Source of the DNA: a virus
Lineage: Duplodnaviria; Heunggongvirae; Uroviricota; Caudoviricetes
Reading direction: 5' to 3' (one strand)
IMG/VR virus record: IMGVR_UViG_2534682078_000020
DNA length: 26,360 nucleotides
The translations under genes and the position numbers were made by a program. Positions 12,424-15,669 of the stretch are shown piece by piece. The first letter of the stretch is position 1. Each line of letters opens with the position of its first letter. The notes under the pieces were generated by a model. The model was not told where the DNA came from, ran no database searches, and saw only the letters and a program-made list of their open reading frames with translations.

Positions 12424-12849
12424 TCAATGTACTGCCACAGCATTTCCTGCCGGGCCACCACGGTTCATCTGATTGAAACCGGCGATTGCCACTGCGACAA
12501 AATCATCAGCGTCTCTCACCAGTCGCTCCCGCGTCTCCACCAGCTCCCGAAAATAAGCTGAACTGTGGCTGCGCATTCTGGCCACCAGCAAAGGTGGCAT
12601 TGCCTTTTCGATCGCTGGTAACAACGCCTGAATTTTTTCAACTGCATCAGGGGTGTCTTTCTCTACCCAGCGGAAAATTTTCTGGGTATTGCGAGCCAGG
12701 GCTTCCGGATGGCTGTCGTCATACAGTTCAGGAAACGTCATACCCAACTCAAAATAAGCCTGGGTTATTCCAGCTGCTGGAACTTTTTCGCCATCAGGAC
12801 GCGCCCAGGCATTCATCGCCATGCGGATGTGTTCATGCTTGATTTTCAT
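12424..12849 (-). CDS. YdaT-like protein (CII-position regulator of Rac-type immunity regions)
   Basis: 141 aa starting MKIKHEHI..., which I recall as the YdaT N-terminus; sits directly downstream of the Cro-like gene. Confidence 0.55.
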   Translation of the reverse strand: MKIKHEHIRMAMNAWARPDGEKVPAAGITQAYFELGMTFPELYDDSHPEALARNTQKIFRWVEKDTPDAVEKIQALLPAIEKAMPPLLVARMRSHSSAYFRELVETRERLVRDADDFVAVAIAGFNQMNRGGPAGNAVAVH

Positions 12850-13114
12850 GAATCAAGCTCCTAGTAAGTGGTTGTGTTAACGTTTTGGTATCTTCCAGCT
12901 CGGGCCAAATATTCATCCAATCAAAAGGCCTTAGTTGCTGACGTGTAACTTCACCATTACTGGCTCGCTCAATAAGGACACATAACGATGCCCCTAACAT
13001 TTGACCTTTACTCAATGCCTTTCTTAGATAACCGATGCTAGTACCACACTCACATGCAAACATACGCTGTTCATCTGACGAAAGAGAATTGAGAAATATT
13101 CTTAATTCTTCCAT
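12833..13114 (-). CDS. Cro-like HTH regulator (YdaS-like)
   Basis: 93 aa; HTH region and ...IERASNGEVTRQQLRPFDW resemble YdaS-type Cro analogues; divergent from the repressor gene. Confidence 0.6.
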   Translation of the reverse strand: MEELRIFLNSLSSDEQRMFACECGTSIGYLRKALSKGQMLGASLCVLIERASNGEVTRQQLRPFDWMNIWPELEDTKTLTQPLTRSLIHENQA

Positions 13115-13140
13115 AGCTACTCCTTAGTAAACACAGCAAG

Positions 13141-13190
13141 AATACCCACAGGTAAACAAAAGTCAATACCCTTGGGTTGTTTACCTTGCG
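13141..13190. promoter_or_regulatory. Immunity-region operator/promoter region between Cro-like and repressor genes
   Basis: Inverted repeat AGGTAAACAA (13150-13159) / TTGTTTACCT (13177-13186); degenerate copy of the ATACCC..GGGT operator motif (CAATACCCTTGGGTT) plus an AATACCCA half-site. Confidence 0.4.
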
Positions 13191-13213
13191 GTAATCGCAT
13201 CTATTATTTACCT

Positions 13214-13632
13214 ATGGACAAATATGAATTTAGACGACAACAACTCATCAAAATTCGTGATGAGAAATGCGATGGTAAAGCGGTTAACGTGGCCAGAAAG
13301 ATCGGTCGCGAGCCTTCTTATGTATCAAGAATGTTGTACCCAGAGGGGAAAAAGGAAAAAAACGGATCGCTGATGATATGGTGGAGATTATAGAAGAGTC
13401 CTTTGGGTTACCCCGGGGATGGATGGATGGTATCGTTTCATCATCAACGAACACAGCCTCCAATTATGAAACAAGGGTTCTAACGCCACGACAACGTATT
13501 TTTTTAGATCTCTTAGACGAACTGCCAGAAAGTGAAGCGGATAACTTATTAAAAACTCTTGAAGAGAAAAAACAGTATTACAATATGATCTACGAAGAAA
13601 TCCGTAAAAAGAAAGCACAAAACGCATCATAA
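13214..13632 (+). CDS. CI-like prophage repressor, split into two frames at an A7 run (13356-13362) as assembled
   Basis: ORFs 13172..13393 and 13378..13632 fuse if the A7 run is A8; N-terminal HTH (KAVNVARKIGREPSYVSRML); leaderless-type ATG at 13214. Confidence 0.55.
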
Positions 13633-13675
13633 CTCACCAAACAACCAGTCACCAGTTAAGACACATCAAAAAATT

Positions 13676-13710
13676 ACCCATGGGTATTTACTTTTTAAAT
13701 ACCCATGGGT
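13676..13710. promoter_or_regulatory. Two palindromic operator sites (T/A)TACCCATGGGTAT, 25 bp centre-to-centre, upstream of the left operon
   Basis: ACCCATGGGT at 13676-13685 and 13701-13710, the second a perfect 14-bp palindrome ATACCCATGGGTAT; TTTTTAAAT between them could be a -10 element. Confidence 0.6.
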
Positions 13711-13897
13711 ATCCTTCCTTTCATACCAACCCACCCCGTCCCACAGAACGCAGGGCAATACTTCGAGTTACCAGGCAGTGGTCAGGGGGTAAGTAGCCAG
13801 CCCGAGGCGTAAGAACATGACGGCAGGGTTCAACTTTAATAACTATGCAGCAGGTTTTTGTTCCGCTACCCCGGCGTTAAGGGGAAATGAGGTCAGC

Positions 13898-14050
13898 ATG
13901 GATACTATCGATCTTGGCAACAGCGAATCTCTGGTATGCGGCGTGTTTCCCAACCAGGACGGTACGTTTACCGCGATGACGTATACCAAAAGTAAAACGT
14001 TTAAAACCGAAGCTGGCGCGCATCGCTGGTTAGCAAGAAACTCCGACTGA
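13898..14050 (+). CDS. Small left-operon protein (YdfA-like, ~50 aa)
   Basis: ATG at 13898 preceded by GAGG; position matches the first small gene after the repressor in dicB-type operons. Confidence 0.45.
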   Translation: MDTIDLGNSESLVCGVFPNQDGTFTAMTYTKSKTFKTEAGAHRWLARNSD

Positions 14051-14061
14051 TGAGGTTGACG

Positions 14062-14700
14062 ATGGAATTTAAAGATTTACCTCCTTCAATCCAGGAGATT
14101 GCAGCACACACACTTCGTCATCGTCTGAACGAACTTGAATTGGAATCGGTAACGAAAAAAGACACTGATAATATGGCTCGTAATGTGCGCGATGCGTTTA
14201 CCGGATTGTATTTCTGTGCGTCTATAAATAAACACGACTCAGAGAGTGTGGCAAATAAAATTGCAGAAACGACAGCGCAAAACATCAATACGAAACCAAC
14301 GGAAGAAGAAATTGATCAGTTTGCTCATGATGCTGGTTTAAAAAACAAGAAAGAAAAATCGCCATATGCGGGGAACATGTTTGTTTATGACAATCTCATC
14401 AGAATTCGTGGCGAAATTCCGGCGGAATACCTGGCAAGAGTCCATCAGGCATTGCTTAAAAATTTGGAAACAGAATTATTTGATGGCAACACTAACGGTT
14501 TCTTCATGGTATCAGGCCTTGATAAAGACTGGGATGCAGAAAAACGCTGGAATGTTGCTACATGGTTATTCAGTAACAGAGCCGCTGCACTGGAAGCTTC
14601 GGCATGTATTTGCGGCCTGTTCTTAACAGACCACAAATATAATCTGGATGTGTACAGTTATATTTACGCTGAACACGGTCCACTCTGGATTGACTGGTAA
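14062..14700 (+). CDS. Hypothetical protein (212 aa), cargo gene downstream of repressor
   Basis: Long ORF with GAGG before the ATG at 14062; no family recognised. Confidence 0.55.
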   Translation: MEFKDLPPSIQEIAAHTLRHRLNELELESVTKKDTDNMARNVRDAFTGLYFCASINKHDSESVANKIAETTAQNINTKPTEEEIDQFAHDAGLKNKKEKSPYAGNMFVYDNLIRIRGEIPAEYLARVHQALLKNLETELFDGNTNGFFMVSGLDKDWDAEKRWNVATWLFSNRAAALEASACICGLFLTDHKYNLDVYSYIYAEHGPLWIDW

Positions 14701-14910
14701 TTATAAGGAAACACCAGCAGGGCCGCGGCGACCAACAGAACGATTAAAATCAATAATGCCATTATAAAGGACATTATTTAATTTATCGTCGAATGCTGAT
14801 TCTGTGAGCCTCAACTCTGAATGAGTTTTTAATAACCCTGATTGCCTGAGTTGATTTACCAGGCATTCAATCTGTTTTTCAATAAGCGGATTTCTTTTTT
14901 TGTTTGGCAT
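14701..14910 (-). CDS. Hypothetical small protein (69 aa), convergent with the 212-aa gene
   Basis: ATG at 14910 preceded by GGAGGA at ideal spacing; stop abuts the stop of the + strand gene. Confidence 0.45.
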   Translation of the reverse strand: MPNKKRNPLIEKQIECLVNQLRQSGLLKTHSELRLTESAFDDKLNNVLYNGIIDFNRSVGRRGPAGVSL

Positions 14911-15247
14911 TTTATCCTCCATTGAGGTTCTGGGTTAAAAATGGAGACCAACACGCTGTCACGTGTGGTCGTGCGCCGGACACGGATAAGAATCCGGTAC
15001 TGACAGTTTACTGAAAGGATATTTCCCTGAAAAGTCAGGGCATAACGCGAAAGCGTACGGCGAAGCTCTTTCCCTTAGAAGGCTTGTCGTTAGATTTCTT
15101 CGAACGTGCGCTTCCGGTTGTGGCACTCCGCGAAATGGCGCGGCGGTAAGTATGGCGGGGTTATTCCTTCCCCGTTGAGGACACCGGGTTGTCAGGTTGA
15201 CCATACGCTTAAGTGACAACCCCGCTGCAACGCCCTCTGTTATCAAT

Positions 15248-15300
15248 TTTCTGGTGACGTTTGGCGGTATCAGTTTTACTCCGTGGCTGCTCTGCCGCCC
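15248..15300 (+). ncRNA. dicF: DicF small RNA
   Basis: TTTCTGGTGACGTTTGGCGGTATCAGTTTTACTCCGTGGCTGCTCTGCCGCCC followed by TTTTT; matches my recollection of the 53-nt DicF sequence, and lies ~180 nt upstream of dicB as in Qin. Confidence 0.75.
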
Positions 15301-15480
15301 TTTTTAAAGTGAATTTTGTGATGCGGTGAATGCGGCTAAGCGCACGCGGAACAGTTAAAACAAGCGGTCTTTTACGGGCGTAACGGGAATGCTCTGTATC
15401 CGGCGTTAATTGTTAACTGGTTAACGTCACCTGGAGGCACCAGGCACTGCATCACAAAATTCATTGTTGAGGACGCGATA

Positions 15481-15669
15481 ATGGAAACGTTATTACCAAA
15501 CGTTAATACGTCTGAAGGTTGTTTTGAAATTGGTGTCACTATCAGTAACCCTGTATTTACTGAAGATGCCATTAACAAGAGAAAACACGAACGGGAGCTA
15601 TTAAATAAAATATGCATTCTTTCAATGCTGGCCCGTTTACGTCCGATACAAAAAGGATGCTGGCAATGA
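15481..15669 (+). CDS. dicB: Cell-division inhibitor DicB
   Basis: 62-aa ORF METLLPNVNTSEGCFEIGVTISNPVFTEDAINKRKHERELLNKICILSMLARLRPIQKGCWQ, near-identical to recalled DicB. Confidence 0.8.
   Translation: METLLPNVNTSEGCFEIGVTISNPVFTEDAINKRKHERELLNKICILSMLARLRPIQKGCWQ

What the first reader, a model, noticed from the sequence alone, without database searches (positions are those of the whole stretch)
13141..13710. Repressor operators: paired ATACCCATGGGTAT palindromes at OL and a degenerate copy at OR
Seen in sequence: two copies of ACCCATGGGT (the second a perfect 14-bp palindrome) are 25 bp apart directly upstream of the left operon. A related ATACCCTTGGGT and an AATACCCA half-site lie in the repressor/Cro intergenic region, together with an AGGTAAACAA/TTGTTTACCT inverted repeat. 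This gives a testable operator consensus for the CI-like repressor and suggests the left operon, including dicF and dicB, is under immunity control.
Basis: seen in the sequence. Interest (0 to 1): 0.45.

Follow-up and report, generated by a model that had tools for sequence, protein, structure and literature searches.

The report
Operator sites of a prophage repressor
The repeated palindromes are very probably the DNA sites where a lambda-like prophage's repressor (and its Cro partner) bind to switch the phage's early promoters on and off. This is an ordinary kind of genetic switch, but with a recognition sequence (TACC-N4-GGTA) that I could not find described anywhere.

Summary
ACCCATGGGT occurs twice, 25 bp apart (13675-13686 and 13700-13711), just downstream of a frameshifted repressor gene. 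Related copies lie in the repressor/cro intergenic region.

The conserved core is TACC-N4-GGTA, not the 14-mer. OR holds three sites, not one and a half: 13143-13154, 13167-13178 (GGTT variant) and 13182-13193.

The window has four exact cores in 26 kb, all in these two regions. In 26 loci from many genera that share the repressor's N-terminal DNA-binding domain, there are 93 exact cores against 1.8 expected. They sit at fixed offsets from the repressor ATG (-72, -47, -32) and as a pair 25-26 bp apart downstream.

Phages with another immunity share the flanks at 93-97% identity. They lose homology between 12855-12861 and 13719-13729 and have no such sites.

The sites bracket predicted PR, PRM and PL promoters in one conserved geometry.

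Verdict: these are lambda-type operators of an uncharacterised immunity specificity that control a ydfA-dicF-dicB operon, as DicA does in Qin. It is a new member of a known kind, and no binding experiment exists.

The parts
12833..13114 (-). cro-like gene (93 aa, YdaS-family HTH), transcribed divergently from the repressor gene
   Evidence: ORF list. Pfam YdaS_toxin E 8.9e-6 (below the curated cutoff) and PHROG 35 E 2.4e-23. A homologue occupies the same position in 19 of 25 related loci.
13139..13166 (-). predicted PR promoter: -35 TTGACT at 13166-13161, 16-bp spacer, -10 TATTCT at 13144-13139
   Evidence: Consensus scan, 9 of 12. The -35 abuts OR2 and the -10 begins with the terminal TA of OR1. 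The same geometry appears across relatives.
13143..13154 (.). OR1, TACCCACAGGTA
   Evidence: Exact core. Present at -71 to -75 from the repressor ATG in 23 of 26 loci as an exact core.
13167..13178 (.). OR2, TACCCTTGGGTT (GGTT variant)
   Evidence: One mismatch to the core. The site recurs at -47 to -50 from the repressor ATG in most relatives. The GGTT ending itself recurs in 12 of the 25 other loci. Its centre lies about -41.5 from the predicted PRM start.
13182..13193 (.). OR3, TACCTTGCGGTA, overlapping the PRM -35
   Evidence: Exact core. Present at -32/-33 (-35 in L020) in 20 of 26 loci as an exact core.
13180..13207 (+). predicted PRM promoter: -35 TTTACC, 16-bp spacer, -10 TATTAT; the -10 ends 7 nt before the ATG, so the mRNA would be leaderless
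   Evidence: Consensus scan, 9 of 12. The TTTACC and TA...T columns are invariant or nearly invariant in the 17-locus alignment.
13214..13632 (+). immunity repressor gene, frameshifted here (A5 at 13349-13353 where the intact allele has A6). The intact product is 139 aa: an N-terminal HTH domain (aa 1-72) and a DicA-like helical C-terminus.
   Evidence: Alignment to the O111 allele. NCBIfam DicA match limited to aa 84-136. PHROG 5736 E 4.7e-70. AF2 model with pLDDT 86 and Foldseek matches to XRE/lambda-type HTH proteins and to SPC32H Rep.
13675..13686 (.). OL2 (distal site), TACCCATGGGTA, abutting the PL -35
   Evidence: Exact core. A downstream pair spaced 25-26 bp is found in 23 of 26 loci.
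13700..13711 (.). OL1 (proximal site), TACCCATGGGTA, overlapping the spacer and the first two bases of the PL -10
   Evidence: Exact core. Same geometry in relatives. In mEp043 the record's own 'putative PL' annotation lies across the equivalent pair.
13687..13715 (+). inferred PL promoter: -35 TTTACT at 13687-13692, 17-bp spacer, -10 TATCCT at 13710-13715; start near 13722
   Evidence: Read from the sequence. It scores 8 of 12, below the scanner's threshold. Supported by conserved TTGAC/TTTAC after the distal site and TAnnnT at the end of the proximal site in relatives. Homology to other-immunity phages resumes at 13719-13729.
13675..13711 (+). 16-bp-stem hairpin formed by the two OL sites plus TTTA/TAAA flanks; a possible secondary terminator for the repressor transcript
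   Evidence: Terminator-like hit on both strands. RNA fold -24.5 kcal/mol, z -7.35. Weak or absent in relatives.
13817..15669 (+). left operon downstream of PL: DUF1391 (ydfA-like) ORF 13817/13898-14050, ORF 14050-14700, DicF sRNA 15249-15300, dicB 15481-15669
   Evidence: Pfam DUF1391 E 6.5e-28. Rfam DicF 75 bits. Pfam DicB E 1.7e-37. RefSeq annotation of the O111 copy.

Best explanation
The five TACC-N4-GGTA dyads are the operators of a lambda-type immunity switch.

Each is proposed to be bound by a dimer of the prophage repressor through its N-terminal helix-turn-helix domain. The recognition helix is predicted at residues 34-40 (PSYVSRM) of the conserved REPSYVSRMLY stretch. The divergently encoded YdaS-like Cro protein most probably binds the same sites.

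- At the right operator, OR1 covers the spacer and -10 of PR, and OR2 abuts the PR -35. Together they would shut off cro, the cII-like ydaT gene and replication genes.
- OR2 is centred about -41.5 from the leaderless PRM start, where a bound repressor could activate its own promoter.
- OR3 overlaps the PRM -35 and would shut it off. This would be negative autoregulation by the repressor, or the first target of Cro.
- At the left operator, OL2 and OL1 bracket the -35 and cover the -10 of PL. This would keep the ydfA-like/DicF/dicB operon silent in the lysogen.

What is shown here: the sites, their statistics, their co-inheritance with the DNA-binding domain, the cassette boundaries and the conserved promoter geometry.

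What is inferred: actual binding, which protein prefers which site, activation at OR2, and that the PL transcript reaches dicF and dicB.

In this window the repressor gene carries a frameshift. The cis-encoded repressor is therefore almost certainly inactive, and the sites could be served only by Cro or by a same-immunity repressor from elsewhere.
For: - **Confinement.** The 4 exact cores in 26 kb are all in the two control regions, and the 14-mer is enriched 6 against 0.85 expected.
- **Recurrence.** There are 93 exact cores in 26 loci (132.6 kb) against 1.83 expected, with a maximum of 7 in 200 shuffles. They sit at about -72, -47 and -32 from the repressor ATG and as a downstream pair spaced 25-26 bp in 23 of 26 loci. 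The distance from the repressor stop to that pair ranges from 43 to 1863 bp.
- **Footprint.** In a 17-locus alignment with 57% mean column identity, the invariant columns are the TACC/GGTA halves, the adjoining -35 bases and the ATGs.
- **Independence from the C-terminus.** The motif follows the DNA-binding domain whether the C-terminus is DicA-like or an S24 peptidase.
- **Independence from Cro.** The motif persists in 7 loci that have no Cro homologue.
- **Distant relatives.** Those that keep the EPSY(V/L)(S/A)R helix keep the motif (Mannheimia 587AP2, Xanthomonas Rb1). Three with a different helix lack it.
- **Cassette boundaries.** Three phages of other immunity match the window at 93-97% up to 12855-12861 and again from 13719-13729. 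They match nothing between, apart from a 76%-identity stretch over the DicA-like 3' end of the repressor gene in phage Tritos, and carry no core motif.
- **Promoter geometry.** PR and PRM are found by scan. The PL design is repeated in relatives and matches the PL annotated in mEp043.
- **Protein fold.** The predicted structure is an XRE/lambda-type HTH plus a helical C-terminus.
- **Precedent.** Qin DicA represses dicBp, which drives the polycistronic ydfA-dicF transcript (PMC10448788). CP-933P PaaR2/YdaS bind OR and repress PL, with a leaderless repressor mRNA (PMC8630535).
Against: - There is no binding or expression data for any member of this specificity. I found none in the paper library.
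- Co-inheritance within a cassette is linkage, not proof of contact.
- PL matches the sigma-70 consensus at only 8 of 12 positions and was not called by the scanner.
- The repressor gene in this window is frameshifted, so the proposed repressor cannot be made from this copy.
- The OL pair also forms a very stable hairpin, so it may have a second role.
- OR2 and OR3 are only 15 bp apart centre to centre, unlike lambda, so occupancy rules cannot be copied from lambda.
Confidence: 0.85

Rival explanations
1. The paired OL palindromes are mainly an intrinsic terminator hairpin. It would end the repressor transcript before it runs into the toxic dicB operon, or stop antisense transcription. Any operator function would be secondary or absent.
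For: The scanner reports a 16-pair stem on both strands at 13675-13711. The RNA fold is -24.5 kcal/mol with z -7.35 on the + strand, and -26.5 kcal/mol with z -6.43 on the - strand, where an AUUUUUU tail follows. No other terminator-like site lies between the repressor stop (13632) and PL.
Against: Any two copies of one palindrome form a hairpin automatically. The + strand tail UCCUUCCUUUC is a poor U-tract. In relatives the equivalent pair folds weakly (z -1.3 to -3.6), lacks a consistent U-tract, and can lie 600-1860 bp beyond the repressor stop, always next to a -35/-10 pair. A terminator would not explain the three sites of the same sequence at OR.
Confidence: 0.1
2. The dyads are recognised only by the YdaS-like Cro protein. 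The CI/DicA-like repressor binds some other sequence.
For: Cro homologues with a conserved CGTSIGYLRKA helix accompany the sites in 19 of 25 loci. In this window only Cro is intact.
Against: Seven loci (Klebsiella L005, L007, L009-L011; Izhakiella L022; Orbus L024) keep the sites around the repressor gene with no Cro homologue (tblastn E > 0.3). Presence or absence of the motif follows the repressor's recognition helix in distant relatives. No second repeated motif common to OR and OL was seen.
Confidence: 0.04
3. The palindromes are chance or restriction-site-like motifs (they contain the NcoI site CCATGG) with no regulatory role.
For: The two OL copies contain CCATGG. Short palindromes are common in intergenic DNA.
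Against: The central four bases, which make up the NcoI site, are the variable part across relatives, whereas the outer TACC/GGTA is invariant. Enrichment is about 50-fold over shuffles and tied to position. Three of the five window sites lack CCATGG.
Confidence: 0.01

Closest known systems
Qin cryptic prophage dicA-dicC immunity locus and dicBp (E. coli K-12)
   Same: Same gene order: cro-like gene, divergent short non-S24 repressor, then a promoter driving ydfA(DUF1391)-...-dicF-dicB. The C-terminal third of the repressor is DicA-like (NCBIfam NF007257, aa 84-136). DicA represses dicBp, and a polycistronic ydfA-dicF transcript starts at dicBp (PMC10448788).
   Different: The N-terminal DNA-binding domain is unrelated to DicA's P22-C2-like domain. 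The DicA operator Oc is TTGTTAGTCATAACTAACAA (PMC3441716), not TACC-N4-GGTA. The whole-protein score is 24 bits against a cutoff of 101.
Bacteriophage lambda OR/OL with CI and Cro
   Same: Three sites lie between divergent repressor and cro genes. The proximal pair is spaced 24-25 bp. One site abuts the PRM -35 (centre about -42). The repressor mRNA is leaderless. OL sites sit on PL, downstream of the repressor gene and in the same orientation. The lambda details are from established knowledge and PMC8630535.
   Different: The core is 12 bp (TACC-N4-GGTA) rather than 17 bp. There are two OL sites rather than three. OR2 and OR3 are only 15 bp apart. This repressor has no S24 self-cleavage domain.
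CP-933P PaaR2 / YdaS / YdaT switch of E. coli O157:H7
   Same: The right arm has YdaS-family Cro and YdaT cII-like genes. PRM is leaderless. A PL analogue is repressed by both the repressor and YdaS, shown there by EMSA, footprinting and reporters (PMC8630535).
   Different: The repressor and operator repeats differ (18-bp palindromes with half-site consensus GTTTAGTAA). CP-933P carries the paaA2-parE2 toxin-antitoxin pair after the repressor gene, and this window does not.
Bacteriophage 933W repressor and its operators
   Same: The count of sites is the same, three at OR and two at OL (PMC3317979; annotated in phi24B). Relatives of the window's repressor such as mEp043 CI share about 49% identity with 933W-type CI.
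   Different: That identity lies in the S24 C-terminal domain. The DNA-binding domains are not detectably related. 933W sites are 15 bp with a central base pair and sit at different offsets.
Coliphage mEp043 cI (Aguilavirus) and its unstudied immunity region
   Same: Same DNA-binding domain (76% identity over aa 1-72). Same Cro family, same five-site layout and same core motif.
   Different: The mEp043 repressor has an S24 peptidase C-terminus and an N-type left operon. I found no published operator analysis.
Salmonella phage SPC32H Rep (PDB 5D4Z, 5D50)
   Same: Best structural match to the predicted full-length model: an HTH domain plus a helical C-terminal part (Foldseek E 8.5e-4). 5D50 is deposited as the Rep-Ant complex, so Rep is a repressor that binds an Ant protein. 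That suggests, but does not show, that this repressor is controlled in a similar way.
   Different: Only 16% identity. The full-length rmsd is high, so only the domain architecture is comparable. No antirepressor was looked for here.

Membership tests
Lambdoid immunity operators (OR/OL of a CI/Cro switch) | Divergent repressor and cro-like genes separated by a short multi-site control region | tested here: met
   cro-like gene at 12833-13114 (-), repressor gene at 13214-13632 (+), 99-bp intergenic region with three dyads.
Lambdoid immunity operators (OR/OL of a CI/Cro switch) | The same dyad-symmetric sequence repeated at OR and at a second locus (OL) ahead of the leftward early operon | tested here: met
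   TACC-N4-GGTA occurs 3 times at OR and 2 times at 13675-13711. There are no other exact copies in 26 kb.
Lambdoid immunity operators (OR/OL of a CI/Cro switch) | Sites overlap the -35/-10 elements of PR, PRM and PL | tested here: met
   PR and PRM were found by scan and overlap OR1/OR2 and OR3. PL (8 of 12) was inferred from sequence and from conserved geometry in 23 loci and the mEp043 annotation. Transcription starts were not mapped.
Lambdoid immunity operators (OR/OL of a CI/Cro switch) | Operators travel with the repressor's DNA-binding specificity (immunity cassette) | tested here: met
   Breakpoints at 12855-12861 and 13719-13729 against three other-immunity phages that lack the motif. 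The motif is present around the same domain in 26 loci and lost where the recognition helix differs.
Lambdoid immunity operators (OR/OL of a CI/Cro switch) | Demonstrated sequence-specific binding by repressor and Cro | not testable with these tools
   Needs EMSA, footprinting or ChIP. No published data were found.
DicA (Qin) repressor/operator specificity | Full-length similarity to DicA, including its N-terminal HTH | tested here: not met
   NCBIfam NF007257 scores 24.1 bits against a cutoff of 101. The match covers only aa 84-136.
DicA (Qin) repressor/operator specificity | Operator of the Oc type, TTGTTAGTCATAACTAACAA | tested here: not met
   The window sites are TACC-N4-GGTA. The Oc sequence is from PMC3441716.
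DicA (Qin) repressor/operator specificity | Repressor gene followed by a ydfA-dicF-dicB operon | tested here: met
   DUF1391, DicF and DicB lie downstream on the same strand.
933W-type repressor/operators | Homologous DNA-binding domain and 15-bp odd-symmetric sites | tested here: not met
   BLASTP of 933W-type CI against the window's repressor gives E 8.2. Similarity of mEp043 CI is in the S24 domain only. Site form is from PMC3317979.
Intrinsic (Rho-independent) terminator | GC-rich stem-loop immediately followed by a U-tract, conserved at the 3' end of the upstream gene | tested here: inconclusive
   The stem is strong in this window (-24.5 kcal/mol, z -7.35). The + strand tail is U-poor, and the fold and position are not conserved in relatives.
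XRE / lambda-repressor-like HTH DNA-binding domain | Five-helix bundle with a helix-turn-helix | tested here: met
   AF2 model with pLDDT at least 93 over residues 1-70 and helices at 3-18, 23-30, 34-40 and 54-63. Foldseek matches to C.Esp1396I, HigA, TP901-1 CI NTD and lambda repressor at rmsd 2.6-4 A over 70-77 residues. There was no Pfam sequence hit.

The most novel reading that the evidence does not exclude
One DNA-binding domain and one operator code (TACC-N4-GGTA, three sites at OR and two at OL) are shared by two kinds of repressor. One kind is the SOS-cleavable S24-type repressor of live phages such as mEp043. The other is the short, uncleavable DicA-type repressor of prophages found in about 15% of complete E. 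coli genomes.

If the shared code means shared immunity, these resident prophages would give SOS-proof immunity in trans against that phage group. They would also keep each other's dicF/dicB operons silent. Frameshifts in the A5-6/A7 tract of the repressor gene, as in this window, would then act as a heritable on/off lesion. Such a lesion would hand control of the cell-division inhibitors to Cro or to a repressor encoded elsewhere.
Probability: 0.2. Interest if true: 0.55.

Novelty: new member of a known kind. Interest (0 to 1): 0.3.

Why it matters
It gives an exact, testable operator code and promoter map for an immunity group that has not been studied. That group is present in 822 of 5,426 complete E. 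coli genomes, including O111 EHEC strains, and in several other genera.

In E. coli this switch sits directly upstream of DicF and DicB, which inhibit cell division. Knowing what keeps them off matters for understanding filamentation and prophage-host cross-talk.

The comparison also shows that one DNA-recognition module has been joined to two different C-terminal domains, one S24-type (self-cleaving) and one DicA-like. This is a clean example of domain shuffling inside immunity cassettes.

None of this changes the accepted picture of how lambdoid switches work.

Tried and rejected
- **Pfam scan of the repressor.** No family was found. The HTH assignment therefore rests on the predicted structure.
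- **PDB sequence search with the family profile.** It matched only the S24 domain of relatives (lambda CI, LexA, UmuD) and nothing for the DNA-binding domain.
- **933W lead.** The mEp043 record says its cI resembles 933W CI, and 933W also has 3+2 operators. The similarity turned out to be in the C-terminal domain only, and the operators differ. I rejected it as the family.
- **PaaR2/CP-933P lead.** The right-arm genes are related, but the repressor and the repeats differ.
- **Viral-contig scan.** It returned 80 nearly identical E. coli copies, which are of no use for footprinting. The genome-contig loci were used instead.
- **Literature.** Searches for mEp043 and for four operator strings found nothing relevant; the string hits were LAMP primer papers.
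- **Exact allele.** A search for the window's frameshifted allele among complete E. coli genomes gave 99.8% as the best match. The 84-aa C-terminal ORF that such a frameshift creates is nevertheless called on 23 public contigs.
- **Terminator reading of the OL pair.** Kept only as a minor, lineage-specific possibility.

Full report
**What is in the sequence**

The region 12424-15669 is the immunity region of a lambdoid prophage.

On the - strand lie a 93-aa YdaS-family cro-like gene (12833-13114), a YdaT/cII-like gene (12424-12849) and replication genes.

On the + strand lies a repressor gene (13214-13632). It is followed by a DUF1391 (ydfA-like) ORF, a 216-aa ORF, the DicF sRNA (15249-15300, Rfam 75 bits) and dicB (15481-15669).

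The repressor gene is broken in this window. The A-run at 13349-13353 has five A, whereas the otherwise identical copy in E. coli O111 strain 11128 has six and encodes an intact 139-aa protein.

**Checking the observation**

The 14-mer ATACCCATGGGTAT with up to three mismatches occurs six times in the window against 0.85 expected. Four of the six lie in the two intergenic regions flanking the repressor gene.

The real core is TACC-N4-GGTA. It occurs exactly four times in 26,360 bp, at 13143, 13182, 13675 and 13700. A fifth copy at 13167 ends in GGTT.

The right control region therefore has three sites, not one and a half. The AGGTAAACAA/TTGTTTACCT inverted repeat is the right half of OR1 and the left half of OR3 with their flanks.

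**Comparative test**

The repressor's first 72 residues form a domain that is 70-85% identical in hundreds of proteins. Some of these carry the same DicA-like C-terminus. Most carry an S24 (LexA/lambda CI-type) peptidase domain instead.

I fetched 25 loci from one-genome-per-species contigs, of which I used the 23 closest (L002-L024). I added two phages, mEp043 and CharmingMan.

Together with the window, the 26 loci (132.6 kb) hold 93 exact TACC-N4-GGTA cores. Shuffling gives 1.83 on average and at most 7.

The cores are not scattered. They sit at about -72, -47 and -32 from the repressor ATG. They also occur as a pair 25 or 26 bp apart somewhere downstream of the repressor gene, 43 to 1863 bp after the stop, in 23 of 26 loci.

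The middle OR site ends in GGTT in the window and in 12 of the other 25 loci, so even the imperfection recurs.

In a 17-locus alignment of the OR region, mean column identity is 57%. The invariant columns are the TACC and GGTA halves, the adjoining -35 bases and the start codons. The central four bases and the spacers vary freely.

More distant relatives that keep the EPSY(V/L)(S/A)R recognition helix keep the motif and the layout (Mannheimia phage 587AP2, Xanthomonas phage Rb1). Three relatives with a different helix have no such site.

**Cassette boundaries**

Three E. coli phages with other repressors (vB_EcoS-689R5, vB_EcoS-640R1, Tritos) match the window at 93-97% identity up to 12855-12861, and again from 13719, 13720 or 13729 onward. 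Between those points there is no match, except a 76%-identity stretch over the DicA-like 3' end of the repressor gene in Tritos. None of the three carries a TACC-N4-GGTA core.

The swapped unit is therefore cro, OR, the repressor gene and the OL pair. It ends within a few bases of the predicted PL start. This is the behaviour expected of immunity-specific operators. It is not what one would expect of a feature belonging to the conserved dicB-operon leader.

**Promoter geometry**

The scanner finds two promoters in the OR region:

- A leftward promoter with -35 TTGACT (13166-13161) and -10 TATTCT (13144-13139).
- A rightward promoter with -35 TTTACC (13180-13185) and -10 TATTAT (13202-13207).

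For the leftward promoter (PR), OR2 abuts the -35, and the -10 begins with the terminal TA of OR1.

The left region has the same design. OL2 (13675-13686) abuts TTTACT (13687-13692). After a 17-bp spacer, TATCCT (13710-13715) begins with the terminal TA of OL1 (13700-13711). This PL scores only 8 of 12 and was not called by the scanner.

In relatives, however, the distal site is followed by TTGAC, TTTAC or TAGAC, and the proximal site ends in TAnnnT. In mEp043 the depositor's own "putative PL" lies across the equivalent pair.

The rightward promoter (PRM) has its -35 inside OR3. Its -10 ends 7 nt before the ATG, so the repressor mRNA would be leaderless, as reported for lambda cI and PaaR2 (PMC8630535). 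OR2 is centred about -41.5 from that start, the position from which lambda CI activates PRM.

**Which protein binds**

Cro homologues accompany the sites in 19 of 25 related loci. By analogy with lambda and CP-933P, Cro probably uses the same sites.

Seven loci have no Cro homologue and still keep the sites around the repressor gene: five Klebsiella, Izhakiella and Orbus. The motif therefore follows the repressor domain.

The AlphaFold model has mean pLDDT 86. It shows a helix-turn-helix (helices 23-30 and 34-40), a disordered linker and a long C-terminal helix. Foldseek matches XRE/lambda-type HTH domains. For the whole chain the best match is Rep of Salmonella phage SPC32H, deposited in complex with its Ant protein.

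The C-terminus resembles DicA, whose repression is relieved by the antirepressor Rem rather than by RecA (PMC10448788). Antirepressor control of this repressor is therefore a reasonable guess, but I did not test it.

**Rival readings**

The OL pair plus its TTTA/TAAA flanks forms a 16-bp stem (-24.5 kcal/mol, z -7.35). The scanner flags it as terminator-like on both strands.

Two copies of one palindrome always pair, and the + strand tail is U-poor. In relatives the fold is weak, and the pair follows the promoter rather than the end of the repressor gene.

I keep a terminator role as a possible extra in the E. coli lineage, not as the main function. A restriction-site or chance origin is excluded, because the variable part of the site is exactly the CCATGG centre.

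**Comparison with known systems**

The gene layout and the regulated operon match Qin dicA-dicC-dicBp. The DNA-binding domain and the operator do not: DicA's Oc is TTGTTAGTCATAACTAACAA (PMC3441716).

The logic and spacing match lambda. The site count (3 + 2) matches 933W, but 933W's DNA-binding domain is unrelated and its sites are 15 bp (PMC3317979). The right arm matches CP-933P, which has different repeats (PMC8630535).

I found no paper that describes this operator or mEp043's switch.

**Verdict**

The finding is correct and somewhat richer than stated. It remains an ordinary lambdoid switch with a new specificity, so I class it as a new member of a known kind, of modest interest. This immunity region is present in 822 of 5,426 complete E. 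coli genomes.

In this particular window the repressor is frameshifted and the left arm is truncated into a recE-int fusion ORF next to tRNA-Ser. The prophage is therefore defective. Here its operators would depend on Cro or on a repressor supplied in trans.

Noticed in passing
window 13345-13365: The repressor frameshift lies in GGGG-A5-GG-A7. The intact allele has A6. Database proteins P0016 and P0019 start in another frame and rejoin the repressor frame after this tract, which suggests further indel alleles. The 84-aa C-terminal ORF that the frameshift creates is called on 23 public contigs. These could be real mutational hot-spot alleles or homopolymer sequencing errors.
   Followed up: partly
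protein level; loci L004-L023, L107, L108: The same 72-aa DNA-binding domain is joined either to a DicA-like helical C-terminus (137-145 aa proteins) or to an S24 peptidase domain (220-242 aa proteins). The operators are the same in both cases. This is domain shuffling within one immunity specificity.
   Followed up: partly
window 13167-13178 and the equivalent site in related loci: The middle OR site ends in GGTT instead of GGTA in the window and in 12 of the other 25 loci. It is always followed by (A/G)TTTACC, the PRM -35. The departure from symmetry recurs across genera and may tune affinity or promoter strength.
   Followed up: no
L005, L007, L009, L010, L011 (Klebsiella): These repressor loci lack the Cro homologue and the middle OR site, but keep the outer OR sites and at least one downstream core. 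The promoter-proximal partner is AACC in L005, L007 and L011, and no pair was found in L009. This is a different, possibly non-lambdoid, use of the same repressor domain.
   Followed up: partly
window 14701-14922 (- strand), promoter-like site 14938-14909: A 73-aa ORF with no family match lies antisense inside the left operon, between the 216-aa ORF and DicF. It has its own promoter-like site. It is annotated as a hypothetical protein in the O111 copy.
   Followed up: no
window 15950-17983 and 18389-18478: A 677-aa ORF carries weak Phage_int_M and Phage_integrase matches in its C-terminal 130 residues. Its start lies where related loci annotate an exonuclease VIII / RecE-like gene; the N-terminal part itself had no Pfam hit here. 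It ends near tRNA-Ser(cga). It looks like an internal deletion fusing a recE-like gene to int at the prophage end, so the prophage is defective.
   Followed up: partly
window 13722-13898: The roughly 175-nt leader between the predicted PL start and the DUF1391 start codon is conserved at 93-95% among phages of different immunity. Its function is unknown; a nut-like site or another regulatory RNA feature is possible.
   Followed up: no
window 7748-7922 (-), 3203-3454 (-), 25674-25790 (+), 19470-19545 (+): Rfam and ARAGORN also find a sok antitoxin RNA, a tRNA-Arg/Arg/Met cluster typical of lambdoid late regions, an IS3-family ALIL frameshift pseudoknot, and tRNA-Asn.
   Followed up: no
L026 (Burkholderiaceae MAG), about 49 bp upstream of the match start: A distant relative with a different recognition helix has TACCTAAGGTA. 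The half-sites are the same, but the spacer is three bases instead of four.
   Followed up: no
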